Made by a program: the position numbers and the translations under genes. From NCBI RefSeq assembly GCF_026571515.1, contig NW_026859477.1, positions 1 to 64,000 of the forward strand: a stretch of 64,000 nucleotides of DNA, read 5' to 3'. Under the pieces are notes generated by a model that was not told the origin of the DNA, made no database searches, and saw nothing but the letters and a program-made list of their open reading frames with translations. Within the stretch, counting starts at the first letter, position 1. Every line of letters begins with the position of its first letter. This DNA is from Ruditapes philippinarum. Its lineage: Eukaryota. Positions 32,503-62,707 of the stretch are shown piece by piece.

Positions 32503-32712
32503 GGTGAAGAATTTTTACATTTTCTAGCAGAGGATGAATTTTGAAGAATCTTTACATTTTCAGCTATGGATGAAGAATTTTTACATGTTCTAGCAAACGA
32601 TGAAGAATTTTTACATTTTCAGCAAAGGATGAATTTTTACATTTTCAGCAATGAATGAATATTTTTTACATTTTCTAGCAATGGATGAAGAATTTTTTAC
32701 ATTTTCTAGCAC
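32503..32712. repeat. ~30-bp minisatellite (~7 units)
   Basis: GATGAAGAATTTTTACATTTTCTAGCAATG-like unit. Confidence 0.8.
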
Positions 32713-33277
32713 TGGATCTCACTTGAGCGATCTTGGACTTACAGTTAAGGCCCTCTTTTTCAATATATTTTAAATGCTTTCGGTTTCAGTATTTATATGC
32801 TATGATCCAACATTATTTGCATTTCTTTCCACAATGCATATTTTCTAGGAAAAAACTTGTACATGCAAAATATGGAAACAAAGATCAACAAGGAAAGGAG
32901 ACGTTCAATGAACGCATCCCCCAAACAATCAAGCAACACAGGATTACCGGCAAGAAGCCCAGTAGGCATACTTAAACAAATGTTGTTGTTGTTTTTTTTC
33001 TACATAAATTGAATTTACACACAAATTACCATACGATATCATAAAATAATACGAAACACTATGAAGTGAACTAATATTAGTACAAAATTGGTGTAAATAT
33101 TTACTATGTAGAGTCAGTAATGTATAAGAAAATTAACGAAACATCTTTGCTTTGAATATCATGTATTTAAAAATTTATATACAGTATGAATATGTTTTGT
33201 TTGTCCATTTCTGTTACATTTTGTATATACAGTTCAAATTGCATTTATATACCATATATACCTGCAAATACCTCCCC

Positions 33278-40481: not shown

Positions 40482-41398
40482 ATCACAAAAGAAGATATAG
40501 AATCGAACAGGGGAATGTTAATGACGTGTCACAAAAGAAGATATAGAATCGGACAGGGGAATGTTAATGAGGTGTCACAAAAGAAGATATAGAATCGGAC
40601 AGGAGAATGTTAATGAGGTGTCACAAAAGAAGATATAGAATCGGACAGGGGAATGTTAATGAGGTGTCACAAAAGAAGATATAGAATCGGACAGGGGAAT
40701 GTTAATGAGGTGTCACAAAAAGAAGATATAGAATCGGACAGGAGAATGTTAATGAGTGTCACAAAAGAAGATATAGAATCGGACAGGGGAATGTTAATGA
40801 GGTGTCACAAAAGAAGATATAGAATCGGACAGGAGAATGTTAATGAGGTGTCACAAAAGAAGATATAGAATCGGACAGGAGAATGTTAATGAGGTGTCAC
40901 AAAAGAAGATATAGAATCGGACAGGGAATGTTAATGAGGTGTCACAAAAAGAAGATATAGAATCGGACAGGAGAATGTTAATGAGGTGTCACAAAAGAAG
41001 ATATAGAATCGGACAGGAGAATGTTAATGAGGTGTCACAAAAGAAGATATAGAATCGGACAGGAGAATGTTAATGAGGTGTCACAAAAGAAGATATAGAA
41101 TCGGACAGGGGAATGTTAATGAGGTGTCACAAAAGAAGATATAGAATCGGACAGGGGAATGTTAATGAGGTGTCACAAAAGAAGATATAGAATCGGACAG
41201 GAGAATGTTAATGAGGTGTCACAAAAGAAGATATAGAATCGGACAGGAGAATGTTAATGAGGTGTCACAAAAGAAGATATAGAATCGGACAGGAGAATGT
41301 TAATGAGGTGTCACAAAAGAAGATATAGAATCGGACAGGGGAATGTTAATGAGGTGTCACAAAAGAAGATATAGAATCGGACAGGAGAATGTTAATGA
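40482..41398. repeat. Homogeneous 46-bp minisatellite (~20 units)
   Basis: AATGTTAATGAGGTGTCACAAAAGAAGATATAGAATCGGACAGG(A/G)G. Confidence 0.96.
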
Positions 41399-55006: not shown

Positions 55007-58000
55007 TCAATAAAATCGATCTCGCCAGAGATTAAAATTGATACCAAATTGGGTACTGCAGCTCCTCACATTGTTTTTTGTAAATCTGTAATGAAAAAAG
55101 AGGGCCATGATGGATTACCTATCTCCGTGACCATACGACGCTTTTCATGGAATGACAAAAACATGTCTCGTTGAAGGTTCCATGATAACCGTCATATGAA
55201 CACATTCACGGATGTTTATGAATTCAAATTTCACCACTTCCATGAATAAATGTTGAATTCTGCTAAAACCGGTGCTAGGGGTAGTGGACGATAGCTTGCT
55301 GTTATTAGTATCGCCCATGAACAGGATCATTCAAACACACACTCAACCTTTTCAATATTGCCCTTTTACTTAAAAGGGTAATATTTTTATAACAGTAAGT
55401 ATATCATTTGTTAACATTTGGTTGGAGCAATTTTGTCAATAAGGTTATCATTTATATAACTTTATAAGAAGTCCACTAGGCAATGTTACATGATTAATAT
55501 CAGAGTTCTGTAAAATAAATTTTCAAGAAAGTTTAAAATGTCTTCCTATATAAGTCTAACTAAGCTATGTCGCCTCTAAAACACATATTTCGAAAAGCCG
55601 CAAAAGTTGTGCTACATTCAAAATATTTAAGCTCTGCAATTGGCAGTTTCTTTAGAGACCGGTTTTTTTTTTAAATCCCCAAATGGCAAGATTTATTTTT
55701 GTAGAAGTTCACAAGGCAATGCATTTTGCCAATGCACAAGTTCTGGAACATGTTTGGCATATTGCCTTGTTCAGGTTGAAATTTGAACCAAGATGATAAG
55801 CTGAAATAAATTCTAGAACTTACATCAACCCCCCCCCCCCCCGCACACAAAAGGGAAAATTAATAAGAAATTAAAAATAACAAAACGTAAATGTGAATTT
55901 AAAATGATACCGTGTATGAACATCACGCTGTAGGAACACGTTTTCCTGAATGCTTTCAAATGAAGTGTTCAAACATAAAAGTGTTGACATCTTCACTCTC
56001 TTTATTTCCATAAGCTCAGCTGGAAATTGAATATAAAATATATGCAATGTTAGAGCAAAGGATAATCATTCAAAAATGCCAAATGATATATCTACATAGC
56101 TTTTCAACAAATCTTGTTCACTAACACTACGGTGTTTGTGACGTCACTATATGAAAGGAAAATATTTCCTTTTCATCGTATGTTTTGGATTTAGCCATAA
56201 AGTGGTAATTTGTTCCCTATATAATGATTCTTTTTATTCCTCTATCAAATTAAACGTGTTTACATGCAACCGCAGCTATGAAACAAAAATAAATAGGTGA
56301 AAATCGCATGCTCAGTTTGGATTGATCTGGGGCCTTATTCATTAAACTCCTTAGTTTCTATGGGAAATATTTCCTTATCTTGAAGGAAACTCCCTACTAA
56401 ACTTTGAAGTCAAAAATCCCTGAGGCAAGAAATTCCTTAATTTTATTTTTGTCTTAAGGAGTTTTATGCAACTAAGGAAATTCTTTAAAACTAAGGGAAA
56501 TCTAACGTATTTTAAGGAAAATCTTAGAATCTTAAATTTTTCCCTTAGGAGCTTTGTGAATTCGGCCCCTGTTCAACAAAATCTGTATAATTATGTAGTA
56601 TAATATTTCGCATGCACTCTAGCACCGTCTTTAGCCGTATATAACATTTCCCTCCGATAAATGTAATGCAGTTCGTGGAAAACGTTACATTACATTGTAA
56701 CTGTACACAACACTTACACTTTTGTACGTTGACAAGAAAAATAACACAAAGAATAATTGAATATGTTAGTGTATGAATCAACTGACTATTTCAATATTTT
56801 ACTCAAAATGTGATGATTTTAAAGAAATGGCACTATTTAGAAAACTGTAAAGTTTCACCCAGAGTAAATAAAAAAATATTTGTAAACCTTTATCATTACG
56901 AGTCTTTATAGTTTTTAACTTAAGCAATTGCATTTTTAAAGATTGTTTTGTTTCTCTTTTGTAGAATAAAAAACTAATAATATCCTGGAATTCTGTGACA
57001 GTTTTTTTTTTAAGAAAACATGAAAAGTCATCAGAAGAATATCATATTTCGTGTAACAGATCCTGTCACATGTATTTTAAAACATTGTATGTGAAAGGCA
57101 GCTATTAATTCCCATACAAACACAACTCATCGTTCTACTAATTTTCTTTCTCTGACAAATATTTTGTCCCACTCATTTTGTATTTGTAATCGTGCTTTTT
57201 TATTTCATTTGTGATATAGAAATAATATAACATGATGAAATACTATGTTATCAGGAGTTTGAGGATAGAAAACCTTTGGCAGACATTGAAAAGCAGACAC
57301 ACACTCCAAAATCAGTGCCTCCAGCGCTTTGATCTAGATAAAGGCTCAGTGTTTCAGCCAAACTTGTTTAATGCATCATATTTCATTTTAAATAAGTATA
57401 TTGCGTGTTGCTGACACTATATCTACCTGTTGTAAAACCGATCCATGGCTGATGGCTGTCCCTTCTCTCGAAGAAGAACCTATCCCCATCCCGAAGTCGC
57501 TTAAATTGTTTTGCAAGAATACACTGACCCGTGGGACCCAAAATGCTCCCAGCTGCACGACGCTCACTTAAATGCCCTGTGAATAAGTCAATATCCTCTG
57601 GACATCTAAAATAAAACGGCAAGCAATTGTATATCTCGTTTATAAAGTAAGTTACCAATTTCATCACCATATTTACAATAATTTTTTTTAAACAATATAT
57701 TCACATGTGTACCATGTTGCCTGTCGGACAGATGTTGACACAGTATACATACTAGCGCTTATGTTAAGAATGATAGCGTTATTGAAAATACAAGTCTTTA
57801 CTGTTTTAAAGCTGCATACCTCCAAATGAGCCAAATATTTCCAGATAATCAAACTAAAAAAAATGTACTGGGAATTTAAGAAAAGTAAAACAGATTCAAG
57901 ATTCAAGTAATGATTTACATGTATCATATGAACGATTAAAGACTGACTTTGCAGTATTTATCACCGTATTTCTATTGCTTGAATAACGCTGTCAATGATT

Positions 58001-61000
58001 TGTTTGCATATTTTTTTGTACTTTACGTGGAATGAAACTGCCGAGTGCAAAGTGTAAGTTACTTTCTTTGTTCACTTTATCATTTGTCAAACTTTTCATC
58101 AAAATTAGCATGAACCTGGAGGCAAGCTGCTTTAAGTCAAGCTTTACCAAAATAGTTGGCTACAAAGCTTCAGGTAAATCAACCTTTATCTGCTGCCGAT
58201 AGCAGATTCTACCCATTAGACCCGTGCAGACCGAGATTATCCGTGCAGTCTTATCATGGTTCGCATTGTTCGCTATTTAGTCAGTATGTATCTTGAAACT
58301 TGTTTCATACAAACGATCAATGGCTTAGTCCACGGAGGCCGAATAGATCAATGGCTTAGTCCACGGAGGCGGAATAGATCAATGGCTTAGTCCACGGAGG
58401 CGGAATAGATCAATGGCTTAGTCCACGAAGGCGGAATAGATCAATGGCTTAGTCCACGGAGGCGGAATAGATCAATGGCTTAGTCCACGGAGGCGGAATA
58501 GATCAATGGCTTAGTCCACGGAGGCGGAATAGATCAATGGCTTAAGTCCACGGAAGCGGAATACATAGAGATAAAACAAATATTGTGAATGCATCAGTTA
58601 GAGTCAATGAGGATGATAATTCTGATAGAAAAATATTGAAAACTATTTACATACGAGTAAACTTGGCTAAGGAGATCAGCAATATGTGGATCGTGGTCAA
58701 CAAGTCCTCCATAATCTGTACCAAAATGAGTCACGTCTGAAAGACCACATTGTTTCCTGAATGCATTGTATCCCGGTATGCCATGATCTCTACCTCTGAA
58801 ACGTATTCGAATATAAATTTGTATGTTTATATGATCTTAATACGAACTGAAGTTGCAATATAGTAAATCTAAGGTAACATAGGCCTATATGAGATATTTG
58901 TTTGTTTGTTGTTTTTTTTTTTTGTTGTTTTTTTTTGGGGGGGTGGGTTTCTTTGTATTGCAAGACCACTCGTGACAAATTGGATGTTGTGTTCTCACTC
59001 TGTTAAGTATAATTTGATCTTGCATGACAAACAAACACTTTTTCTGATTATTTTTTACCTTTTTAAATCGTGAATAAAGCCATGTAGACTGACCTTCCAC
59101 GTAAGGTCATGCGATCTTCTTCGTCGAGAAAAAAATCTGTTAACAAAGGTCATCCAAGGGAGAGGCCAGACATGTCCTTTAAAGACAAATGGTCTTTACT
59201 TGGAGGTAACTTTTAATAATCAAATAAGGGATTGCCTCAGAGGTGGCCTTTAGCACGGGTTTGGGTGATTTTCACGATAACTGTACTTGTATTTCAATTT
59301 ATAATTTTCAATTTTAGGTTTTGAACAGTGAACATGTAAAAACGCTTGGCGATGTAAACAGTCAAAGCTACCGAAGCTGGGTCCAGTAAAGGACTTCGAC
59401 CTTTGATTAACATAAAGTCTGTGATTCCTGTAAAAAGTGTGTTTCAAGACTGAAGAAACATTAACAATATAGTTACGTTCTTATATTCTCAATGTGCCAA
59501 ATTATTAAGAACACCTATGAATGAATTATAGACAAATCTTTGACAAACATGTATAATTTTTATCTTTGTAGCTGGCGTATGGGCGTGACAATTCTGCTTA
59601 TTCCCCACACAATTATGCGTAGATATTTCAGAAATCCATCAATAAACGACAGAACTGATGACCAACGCAATCATCAATGTTCTTTTATGAAATTGTACTT
59701 TTAACGTGTTAGTGTGTCCTTGACCTTTGAGCTTTCAAGTTGTTCTCACACATCACACTCTGTTTACGTACAACATACTTAAGCCAAGTACTAAATTTTT
59801 AAAATTTGTCAATGAATGACAAATATATGGACTTAACATGACCATTAATGTGCTATTATTTTATAACTTTTGACATTAATGTCTGATCTTGACCTTTGAC
59901 CTCTTATACTAGCACTTGTTCATTACATTTTTTTTCCAAAATTCATACAGGAATAAAACTTATGTACAAAACACGGCCAGTTTTTCACAATCATGACCTT
60001 TACCTTTGAGAAGATTTAATAATTCACCGATTATATGACTTACAATAAATAATATATTTTTGTTCATGTGTTTACATACCTTTGCACGTGTTTACATACC
60101 TTTGCACGTTTAGCGAGGCTAAATCCATGGAGTCGTTGTTGTGATCTTGGAAGAGCAATGTCTGAACGGCTGGTTCTAAATGTCTGAAATTAAATTAGAT
60201 GTCTGAACGCCGGGCTTCTAAATTAATGTCTGAAATTAGATTTCATGTCTGAATGTCAATGTCTGAACGCCGGGCTTCTAAATGTCTGAAATTAGATTTA
60301 ATGTCTGAACGCCGGGCTTCTAAATGTCTGAAATTAGATTAAATGTCTGAATGCCGGGCTTCTAAATGTCTGAAATTAGATTAGATGTCTGAACGCCGGG
60401 CTTCTAAATGTCTGAAATTAATTAAATGTCTGAACGCCTTGTTCTAAATGTATGAAATTGAATTAAATTGAATGCCTAGTTCTAAATATCTGAAATTAAT
60501 TAAATGTCTGAACGCCGGGCTTCTAAATGTCTGAAATTAGATTTAATGTCTGAACGCCTGGCTCTAAATGTCTGAAATTAATTAAATGTCTGAACGCCTT
60601 GTTCTAAATGTATGAAATTGAATAAAATTAAATGCCTAGTTCTAAATATCTGAAATTAATTAAATGTCTGAACGCCGGGCTTCTAAATGTCTGAAATTAG
60701 ATTTCATGTATGAATGCCTGGCTCTTAATGTCTGAAATTAATTAAATGTCTGAACGTCTTGTTCTAAATATCCAAAATTAGATTAAATGTCTGAACGCCT
60801 GGCTTTAAATGTCTGAAATCAAATTCTATTTGATATACAAAAAACGGTCTTTACGGCAGCCAAACAATTTACTGAAGTGATCTAGGCGTATGTGTCTCTT
60901 AACAGGGTGTCCTTTAAAGATGAAAATGGGATTTGGTTTTACAGACAAGCTGTCAAGATTTCTTATCTATAAAATGCTATTTTACAACGATTATTGTACT

Positions 61001-62707
61001 TGCAAGAATCGTACCTGTCACTGAAGGGACACTGGGTTGAACTTGTCCATAGCAGAACTTGCTCTAATCCATAGCCGTCATTAGTATGGTAAAGCTCTGG
61101 GTCGAAAAATAAGTTATGTAAACGTCTTCGTGAATCAAACTCCTGCCCGTCATTAGCCATCATGGAAACCTCTCTATGTATGAGGGTATGACCAAAACGA
61201 AGACCAGCAACCGCGAAACTGTTAGAAATAGTAGCATCAACTAGAGGACTGTAAGTGTCTTTATATCCATAATGCTGAAAATATTTATTTATTTATTTAA
61301 ATAAAAATTTATTCATTTATATATTCATTTAAATAAAAATGCATTAAAAAATTATTTATTTATTTATTTTAAATAAAAATTTATTTATTTTTATATTCAT
61401 NNNNNNNNNNNNNNNNNNNNNNNNNNNNNNNNNNNNNNNNNNNNNNNNNNNNNNNNNNNNNNNNNNNNNNNNNNNNNNNNNNNNNNNNNNNNNNNNNNNN
61501 NNNNNNNNNNNNNNNNNNNNNNNNNNNNNNNNNNNNGTTTGTGTGAAATTTGCCGATACGAGGATTGAGAATGTTAACTGGATTAGAAAGAATAAAAAGC
61601 ATATCCTATATATTATAGCATTTGTGAAGACTTAGCTCAATGTCCCTCCCACCATCACCCTGGGGATTTGGCTAGTATGTAGAGGTCATCTGAGATGTGG
61701 ATATCAACTTAAAAAAATTTTAGTGAAAATCGCCCACACATTGACTTGTTTCCTCCTCAGGAAAACTAGTTTATTTCCAAACGCCCTTCTACAATAAGCA
61801 TTTACCCTTGTTAAATTTTTGAACCCCTCTTAGAAAAAAGTCATGGAGCCGCACTTGTAATTCTAAATGCAAGGCCAGTTTTTACGAATGAACGGACTGA
61901 CGGGCGACATTATGTTATGGTGTTATTTCTTTGATCTCGAAAACTACCATAAGCAAAATTTTCGGATCTCATTAGCAATTTTTTACCCCCTTAATAAGGC
62001 GTAATTTGGTATAAAACCATGAAATCAACTTGTGCATTGACGCATACACCTTACTCATAAAGAAGGGCGTTCGGATGTCCGGACGGACAAATAGACAGGC
62101 GGACGGATGGCTACCTTCCCCTTTACCTGCAATTATTTATGATAATAATAATAATAATAATATTTTCATTATTTCTTATCAGAAGGTAGCACATTAAACT
62201 CACAGGGACCCAGCACAGTGTTGGGATAGTGTAAAAAATCATTCAAGAAAGAAATATATACTGTATATATAATATAGTCTATATATTATATATACAGTAT
62301 ATATTTTTTTTCTAGAATGACCTTTTCACACTATCCCAACACTGAACTGGGTCCCCGTGATTAAATTTATAGAAATTTAGGCACAAGCGTATAAATATTT
62401 ACTGATAGCCTACAACAGATAAGCATTTATAGTCAGTAATGATGATAATAATTTTCTTAAGCTCAACTTACCGCAATATCCAAGTTATATTCTCTCATAA
62501 CAAGAGGCCCGAGTATTAATGGTAGATATTCGGAGTATACTATATTCTGCCACTGGGCAATGTTTATCTTCCTCGCTTCCTGATACAAGCGTTCATCTTC
62601 CCAGTGAGGATTAACGGCAGATAATCCCTCTGCCAGGCGGTTATGTTCGCGCATTAGAATTGTATGTATGGATGAAAGGCCGGGTTGTTCGTTCACTCGT
62701 TCGTCCC
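55007..62707 (-). CDS. Animal heme peroxidase (peroxidase-cyclooxygenase superfamily; peroxidasin/chorion-peroxidase-like), last 7 exons: 62707-62472, 61274-61015, 60183-60100, 58795-58655, 57605-57427, 56019-55911, 55085-55007
   Basis: All introns GT-AG and phase-compatible. Motifs [32 protein letters not shown] (proximal His), [35 protein letters not shown]; C-terminus ...[18 protein letters not shown]; AATAAA at 54974-54969. No upstream exons were found in the window. Confidence 0.93.
56330..56568. mobile_element. PIF/Harbinger-like MITE
   Basis: GGGCCTTATTCATTAAACTCCT ... AGGAGCTTTGTGAATTCGGCCC; 3-bp CTG TSD. Confidence 0.75.
58315..58563. repeat. Intronic 31-bp minisatellite (8 units)
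   Basis: GATCAATGGCTTAGTCCACGGAGGCGGAATA x8. Confidence 0.95.
60157..60820. repeat. ~41-bp minisatellite derived from a peroxidase intron/exon junction
   Basis: Unit AATGTCTGAACGCCGGGCTTCTAAATGTCTGAAATTAGATT; the first unit overlaps exon 60183-60100 and its acceptor. Confidence 0.92.
61401..61535. other. Assembly gap
   Basis: Run of N within a peroxidase intron, next to an AT-only tract. Confidence 1.
62201..62359. mobile_element. 159-bp hairpin deletion derivative of the foldback element at 11616-13373
   Basis: Same TIR CACAGGGACCCAGCACAGTGTTGGGATAGTG; 8-bp TSD ATTAAACT/ATTAAATT. Confidence 0.87.

What the first reader, a model, noticed from the sequence alone, without database searches (positions are those of the whole stretch)
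60157..60820. Minisatellite made of a splice acceptor: about a dozen decoy 3' splice sites ahead of a peroxidase exon
Seen: on the coding (-) strand each ~41-bp unit is TAATTTCAG|ACATTTAGA...CGTTCAGACAT, i.e. the acceptor plus the first ~25 nt of exon 60183-60100, amplified into the upstream intron. About 12 units keep TTTCAG intact. Only the last, most downstream one continues into the conserved [14 protein letters not shown] frame. The decoys I translated hit a stop quickly (A CAT TAA, or ...GAC ATT TAA). Inference: the spliceosome must skip many near-identical AGs, or the array acts as a copy-number-variable dial sending transcripts to nonsense-mediated decay.
Basis: partly seen in the sequence, partly recalled or inferred. 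Interest (0 to 1): 0.7.

Follow-up and report, generated by a model that had tools for sequence, protein, structure and literature searches.

The report
Splice-acceptor "mirage" repeat in clam peroxidase
A roughly 41-base stretch covering the start of one exon of a peroxidase gene (likely from a clam) is copied 15 more times into the intron before it; the assembled RNA seen is spliced only at the last, genuine copy, so this is likely harmless clutter of a kind already known from lancelet and human genes.

Summary
Observation confirmed. On the minus strand, 15 copies of the intron end plus the first 26-27 nt of an 84-nt peroxidase exon lie upstream of the real acceptor; 12 of 15 keep TTTCAG, and all 12 lead to a stop. 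Spliced contigs from 3 of 3 runs (three studies) join 61015 to 60183, with no decoy joint; contigs drop rare forms, and raw reads were too shallow. The exon start is ancestral (RHLEP shared with Mercenaria), so the repeat came from the boundary. Another run holds the array with a different allele, so it is no assembly artefact. This is a "mirage", described in amphioxus and, for donors, in human genes. Stops after decoys are not special: 187 of 187 upstream AGs in three other introns also give stops. Arrays abut 3 of 168 peroxidase match ends here against 2.1-2.6 by chance. The scan found this repeat type before on other DNA of this genome. The decay-dial idea has no support but is not excluded. 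Ordinary; low interest.

The parts
60184..60827 (-). Intronic part of the array: 15 copies of [last ~15 nt of the intron + first 26-27 nt of exon C], spacing 38-42 nt (56 and 46 next to the exon); 12 keep TTTCAG; a 160-bp higher-order block is duplicated
   Evidence: 153 of 160 bases identical between 60769-60610 and 60609-60450
60100..60183 (-). Exon C, 84 nt, phase 2 at both ends ([29 protein letters not shown]); its first 26-27 nt are the source of the repeat; its acceptor is the one used
   Evidence: joints 61015/60183 and 60100/58795 in X1, X5, X6; 19 of 28 residues identical to P0026; same length and phase in the paralogue on C7753
60068..60109 (-). 20-bp duplication of the exon C donor; the second GT donor (exon end 60080) would shift the frame and is not the one seen
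61015..61274 (-). Exon B (260 nt), whose donor pairs with the acceptor at 60183
   Evidence: PF03098 E 1.2e-10; covered by spliced contigs
62472..62707 (-). Exon A (236 nt) of the animal haem peroxidase gene; the gene's earlier exons lie beyond the window end
   Evidence: PF03098 E 1.5e-34; contig pieces; upstream exon end found in L013
58655..58795 (-). Exon D (141 nt, RGRDHG...)
57427..57605 (-). Exon E (179 nt)
   Evidence: PF03098 E 6.4e-17; loose end of the X1 contig matches its start

Best explanation
This is a minisatellite copied from an intron-exon boundary (a "mirage"), and the spliced RNA seen uses only the last copy, likely because only that copy is followed by the whole exon and its nearby donor. 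Shown: the unit is the intron end plus the exon start; the exon start is ancestral; the array varies between haplotypes; the dominant transcript joins 61015 to 60183. Inferred: a local tandem duplication across the acceptor was expanded by slippage or unequal exchange (a 160-bp block was copied as a whole); copies could only pile up on the intron side, because the last copy keeps the full exon; the short exon between two long introns (831 and 1304 nt) is likely picked by cross-exon pairing with the donor 84 nt away; any rare decoy transcripts would carry an early stop and would likely be destroyed. The array is therefore likely close to neutral.
For: Junctions: 3 of 3 spliced-contig runs (X1, X5, X6; studies P1, P2, P3) show 61015/60183 and 60100/58795, no other splice-type joint, and zero depth over 60292-60996. 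Ancestral exon start: RHLEP identical in Mercenaria P0026 and no gap in 4 of 4 homologues aligned; the paralogue on C7753 has the same 84-nt exon and no repeat in the intron tail shown. Allelic variation: X19 has 60212-60275 replaced by three letters, plus substitutions at 60795 and 60799. The used site is not the best-scoring: 2.7 against up to 5.5 for TTTCAG decoys on a crude matrix, so position, not site sequence, likely decides. At the duplicated donor the copy nearest the exon body is also the one used. No special selection signal: stops follow 68 of 68 upstream AGs in this intron and 187 of 187 in three other introns; arrays at 3 of 168 match ends against null means 2.1-2.6. Precedent: amphioxus mirages reported not to disturb splicing (PMC3087553; PMC3902484).
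Against: Contigs drop rare variants and decay would hide decoy products, so 'only 60183' holds for the dominant form alone. Raw reads gave no junction. In human data competing 3' sites favour the upstream site overall; exon definition only reduces that preference (PMC9225289 section 9), so the proposed mechanism is not a strong prediction for acceptors. Most decoys have kept their AG (12 of 15), so there is no sign of purging. With the widest window (-30..+45) arrays abut 7 of 168 match ends against 3.55 expected (P 0.065). In human 6-16 and CBS, nearby pseudo-donors are used as well as the real one (PMC1557585). The exon-definition step was not tested in this animal.
Confidence: 0.82

Rival explanations
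1. The array is a length-variable dial: more or better decoys divert a real share of transcripts to early stops and decay, or promote skipping of exon C, and so tune peroxidase level.
For: 12 intact decoys, all with stops more than 120 nt before the next junction; decoys score as well as the used site; alleles differ next to the exon; human precedent for an intronic VNTR whose length tracks splicing and expression (ABCA7, PMC5954066, abstract) and for use of nearby pseudo-donors (PMC1557585).
Against: No decoy or skipping joint in 3 of 3 spliced-contig runs; stops are the default for any upstream AG here; no enrichment of arrays at exon ends; three more such arrays in unrelated places of paralogues point to a general mutational habit.
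Confidence: 0.08
2. The choice of the last acceptor rests on a local feature (branch point or RNA structure) that the decoys lack, not on the downstream exon.
For: The real site's last 15 intron bases (ctaatttaatttcag) differ from every decoy at positions -10 to -15; a CTAAT branch-like motif lies there (consensus recalled).
Against: CTAAT or TTAAT motifs are present in most decoy units too; the region folds no better than shuffles (z -0.75, 3 of 20 shuffles as good); positions -9 to +7 are nearly the same in all units.
Confidence: 0.07
3. The array is an assembly artefact, or an independent repeat that invaded and rewrote the exon start.
For: Tandem arrays are easy to mis-assemble (general knowledge); the exact copy number was not confirmed by any long read here.
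Against: Units are diverged from one another with a higher-order block; X19 contigs have depth in every bin of the array and show a different allele; X22 raw reads lie in every bin of it; the exon start is conserved in other clams.
Confidence: 0.03

Closest known systems
Amphioxus 'mirage' minisatellites (globin BflGb6, BflGb9; Adh3; troponin C; PGBD5). PMC3087553 (passages of abstract, section 16, supplement legends, references) and PMC3902484 (one passage). The original Adh3 paper was not held and is known here only through these two.
   Same: Tandem copies of an intron 3' end plus the next exon's 5' part (BflGb6); many but not all units keep the AG; length differs between haplotypes; normal splicing reported. 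Unit length here (38-42) lies within the 10-72 bp given for Adh3.
   Different: Here in a bivalve, not a cephalochordate; 16 units against 3-6 in BflGb6; both ends of the same exon are duplicated; somatic instability not tested.
Human boundary-spanning VNTRs: F7 intron 7 (37 bp x 5-9), 6-16, CBS intron 13, lamin B2, PDGF. PMC1557585 (passages).
   Same: Repeated identical splice sites of which the one attached to the real exon is used; matches the duplicated donor at 60068-60109 directly.
   Different: Those are donor arrays, explained by 5'-to-3' scanning; here the array is of acceptors and the last copy wins, which scanning from the 5' side does not explain. In 6-16 and CBS two pseudo-sites are also used.
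ABCA7 intronic VNTR. PMC5954066 (abstract and outline only).
   Different: Shown by genotype and expression data in people; nothing of the kind is shown here.
Chorion peroxidase-like protein of Mercenaria mercenaria (P0026), Pfam PF03098
   Same: Closest named homologue: 86% identity over exon A; 66 of 78, 52 of 87 and 19 of 28 residues over exons A, B, C.
   Different: The database protein ends at the end of exon C; its genomic intron could not be examined.

Membership tests
Mirage minisatellite (PMC3087553) | Head-to-tail repeats whose unit spans an intron-exon boundary of the host gene | tested here: met
   Unit = ~15 nt intron end + 26-27 nt exon start, 16 positions; boundary confirmed by spliced contigs
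Mirage minisatellite (PMC3087553) | Repeat derives from the authentic boundary, which stays as the terminal unit | tested here: met
   Exon start conserved in homologues and paralogue
Mirage minisatellite (PMC3087553) | Many but not all units keep the splice dinucleotide | tested here: met
   12 of 15 upstream units keep TTTCAG
Mirage minisatellite (PMC3087553) | Regular splicing is not disturbed | tested here: met
   Dominant form only: 3 of 3 contig runs use 60183; rare forms not visible
Mirage minisatellite (PMC3087553) | Length differs between haplotypes | tested here: inconclusive
   X19 shows a different arrangement next to the exon (64 bases replaced by 3) but collapsed contigs give no copy number
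Mirage minisatellite (PMC3087553) | Somatic instability (Adh3) | not testable with these tools
   Needs several tissues or single molecules of one animal
Splicing-modulating VNTR (ABCA7 type) | Array length correlates with splice-form ratio or expression | not testable with these tools
   No paired genotype and expression data
Splicing-modulating VNTR (ABCA7 type) | Alternative junctions involving the array are detectable | tested here: inconclusive
   None in contigs; raw reads too shallow
Animal haem peroxidase (PF03098) | Exons match the profile above its cut-off | tested here: met
   3 of 3 exons scanned: 41, 119.9 and 61.7 bits against cut-off 25; enzyme activity not tested

The most novel reading that the evidence does not exclude
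A length-variable array of 25 near-identical AG sites sends an allele-dependent share of peroxidase transcripts to decay, and since this clam genome carries many such boundary arrays (4 in its peroxidase genes alone), they would form a widespread, fast-mutating layer of expression variation and a natural test set for how the spliceosome picks the last of many equal acceptors.
Probability: 0.08. Interest if true: 0.55.

Novelty: new member of a known kind. Interest (0 to 1): 0.15.

Why it matters
As it stands it matters little: one more boundary-spanning minisatellite. Two modest points remain. First, mirages were described as possibly a cephalochordate habit (PMC3087553); here they occur in a bivalve, and my searches (listings seen, 15 of 35 rows) showed no paper on them in molluscs, though the library misses most subscription journals. 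Second, the count suggests a plain reason for them: the genome is rich in minisatellites, and those that happen to cross an exon end are tolerated. If decoy use did scale with array length, the locus would be a simple natural dial for an enzyme's level.

Tried and rejected
Raw RNA reads X21-X24: 48, 53, 3 and 12 reads laid from 4-12% of each run, no joints, no depth on exon B, most reads only partly fitting; says nothing on acceptor choice. One search listed no holder on record as RNA; the runs used are marked 'RNA?' and I count them as RNA only because their contigs skip the introns at GT..AG. I laid 8 of the 24 runs listed. Homologue search with exon B found nothing; exon A worked. The protein atlas gave no result. 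DNA search of the own genome with 60050-60260 found only this array: no second haplotype or dispersed copy was scored, which does not prove absence. Folding showed no structure beyond shuffles. The acceptor matrix was trained on 44 sites picked for being T-rich, and three known acceptors of this gene score -1.5 to 3.4 on it, so it is a rough guide only. The AG control could not be counted for the intron between exons A and B (0 sites evaluated). The enrichment test uses profile-match ends as stand-ins for splice sites, covers one gene family (84 matches, 348 kb) and has low power; exon C itself is not among the 84. Of 7 arrays near match ends, 4 did not carry the splice signal on inspection. 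Orthologous introns in other species could not be fetched (no relatives held). A search for experiments on duplicated acceptors gave only PMC9225289 (abstract, section 9) and PMC8724738 (passages, not useful). Supplements of the papers were not opened; the BflGb6 alignment in PMC3087553's supplement could refine the comparison. Rejected: repeat invading the exon; assembly artefact; in-frame protein-length variants (none of the 12 decoys stays open).

Full report
What is there. The minus strand of 55911-62707 carries six exons of an animal haem peroxidase (PF03098 in 3 of 3 exons scanned); joined, they give an open frame of 335 residues. The closest named homologue is a chorion peroxidase-like protein of the clam Mercenaria mercenaria, 86% identical over exon A, so the animal is likely a venerid clam; earlier notes of the scan call it the Manila clam (not tested by me). 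The intron between exon B (ends 61015) and exon C (60183-60100) is 831 nt long, and about 640 nt of it is a tandem array.

Anatomy. The unit is the last ~15 nt of the intron plus the first 26-27 nt of exon C. There are 15 upstream units and the real boundary; spacing is 38-42 nt, with 56 and 46 next to the exon; identity to the real boundary is 62-88%. Because the exon itself holds a second TTCAG|A at +22, most units carry two AG sites, 25 upstream in all. A 160-bp block was copied as a whole (153 of 160 identical). The donor of exon C is also duplicated, 20 bp x 2.1. All 12 decoys give a stop within 2-28 codons, 123-664 nt before the next junction, which by the usual 50-55 nt rule (recalled) would mark them for decay.

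Direction of copying. Residues RHLEP at the exon start are identical in the Mercenaria protein, and the exon aligns without gaps to 4 of 4 homologues. A paralogue on C7753 has the same 84-nt, phase-2 exon with no repeat in the intron tail shown. So the exon start is old and the repeat was copied from it.

Which site is used. Contigs of runs X1, X5 and X6 (three studies) all join 61015 to 60183 and 60100 to 58795, at depths 17.9, 30.1 and 5.2, and have no depth over 60292-60996; one X1 contig runs through exons A to D without a gap. No decoy joint is listed. These runs are only guessed to be RNA, but their contigs skip introns at GT..AG. Contigs drop rare forms, so this speaks for the dominant transcript alone. 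Raw reads of four RNA runs were too few to show any junction.

Is it real and variable. Run X19, which covers introns, has depth in every bin of the array, one contig from 60762 to 61274 with 17 other letters, and a contig in which 60212-60275 is replaced by three letters. Read with its flanks, that gives a regular 41-nt unit just before the real site. So the array exists in another haplotype and differs there. Its copy number was not measured.

More than chance? Two controls say the striking features are ordinary. Stops follow 68 of 68 upstream AGs in this intron, but also 68 of 68, 44 of 44 and 75 of 75 in the next three introns; the first intron could not be counted. And among 84 peroxidase profile matches in this genome, whose surroundings I fetched (348 kb), repeats of period 10 or more cover 9.7% of the bases, three further arrays repeat a splice signal at an exon end (two acceptors, one donor), and 3 of 168 match ends have an array crossing or touching them against null means of 2.57 and 2.08 (P 0.47 and 0.34). 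With a wider window the count is 7 against 3.55 (P 0.065). The test is rough and covers one family, but it fits a genome rich in minisatellites in which those that cross an exon end are tolerated.

Mechanism. A duplication across an acceptor leaves the full exon attached to the last copy only; further copies pile up on the intron side and are removed with the intron as long as the last site is chosen. The used site is not better in sequence than the decoys (2.7 against up to 5.5 on a crude matrix; positions -9 to +7 nearly the same), and the region has no unusual fold. The likely cue is therefore position: cross-exon pairing with the donor 84 nt downstream and exon sequence beyond +27. This step is inferred. 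Human data support it only in part: the abstract of PMC9225289 says sites closest across the exon are preferred between large introns, while its section 9 shows an overall preference for upstream 3' sites that is merely reduced in that setting. At the duplicated donor the first copy is used, as in human F7 (PMC1557585, passages).

What is known. PMC3087553 describes 'mirages' in amphioxus globin and Adh3 genes: tandem copies of an intron's 3' end and the next exon's 5' part, many keeping their splice signals, varying between haplotypes and not disturbing splicing (passages); PMC3902484 adds troponin C and PGBD5 (passage). This array meets the features I could test. I reached this reading, before looking at earlier notes; those notes (8 shown of 118 that fit the words) report the same kind of array at several other genes of this genome, unchecked by me. 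No note lies near this locus.

The dial. ABCA7 shows that an intronic VNTR can track splicing and expression (abstract), and pseudo-donors are used in 6-16 and CBS, so the idea is possible. Nothing here supports it beyond the presence of intact decoys and allelic variation. I give it 0.08.

Verdict. Observation confirmed; interpretation partly supported; a new member of a known kind; interest 0.15.

Noticed in passing
window 60068-60109 (-): The donor of the same exon is duplicated (20 bp x 2.1); the second GT would add 20 nt and shift the frame; contigs use the first.
   Followed up: yes
G000:C6350:27620-27953 (-), in L071/L072: Peroxidase paralogue with a 59-bp x 5.7 array repeating its acceptor and exon start (6 copies; only the last continues the frame). 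No RNA check.
   Followed up: partly
G000:C12909:126148-126265 (+), in L052: Peroxidase paralogue with about 3 copies (44 bp) of an acceptor and exon start. No RNA check.
   Followed up: partly
G000:C9243:308473-309822 (-), in L061: Peroxidase paralogue whose exon end is followed by 42 copies of a 32-bp unit carrying a GTAAG donor-like site. No RNA check.
   Followed up: partly
P0026: The Mercenaria database protein stops exactly at the end of the exon C equivalent (523 aa); likely a truncated gene model, possibly a problem at that donor.
   Followed up: no
window 32542-32717 (+): 29-bp x 6 repeat whose units contain TTTTCAG or TTTCTAG; could be another acceptor-like array; no exon was identified.
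   Followed up: no
window 40483-41398: Very homogeneous 46-bp x 19.9 minisatellite (97% matches), purine-rich on the + strand.
   Followed up: no
window 58315-58563: 31-bp x 8 minisatellite (97% matches) inside the intron after exon D, not touching a boundary.
   Followed up: no
window 60192: Raw reads of X22 (4 of 5) show another letter at position -9 of the real acceptor; likely an allele.
   Followed up: no
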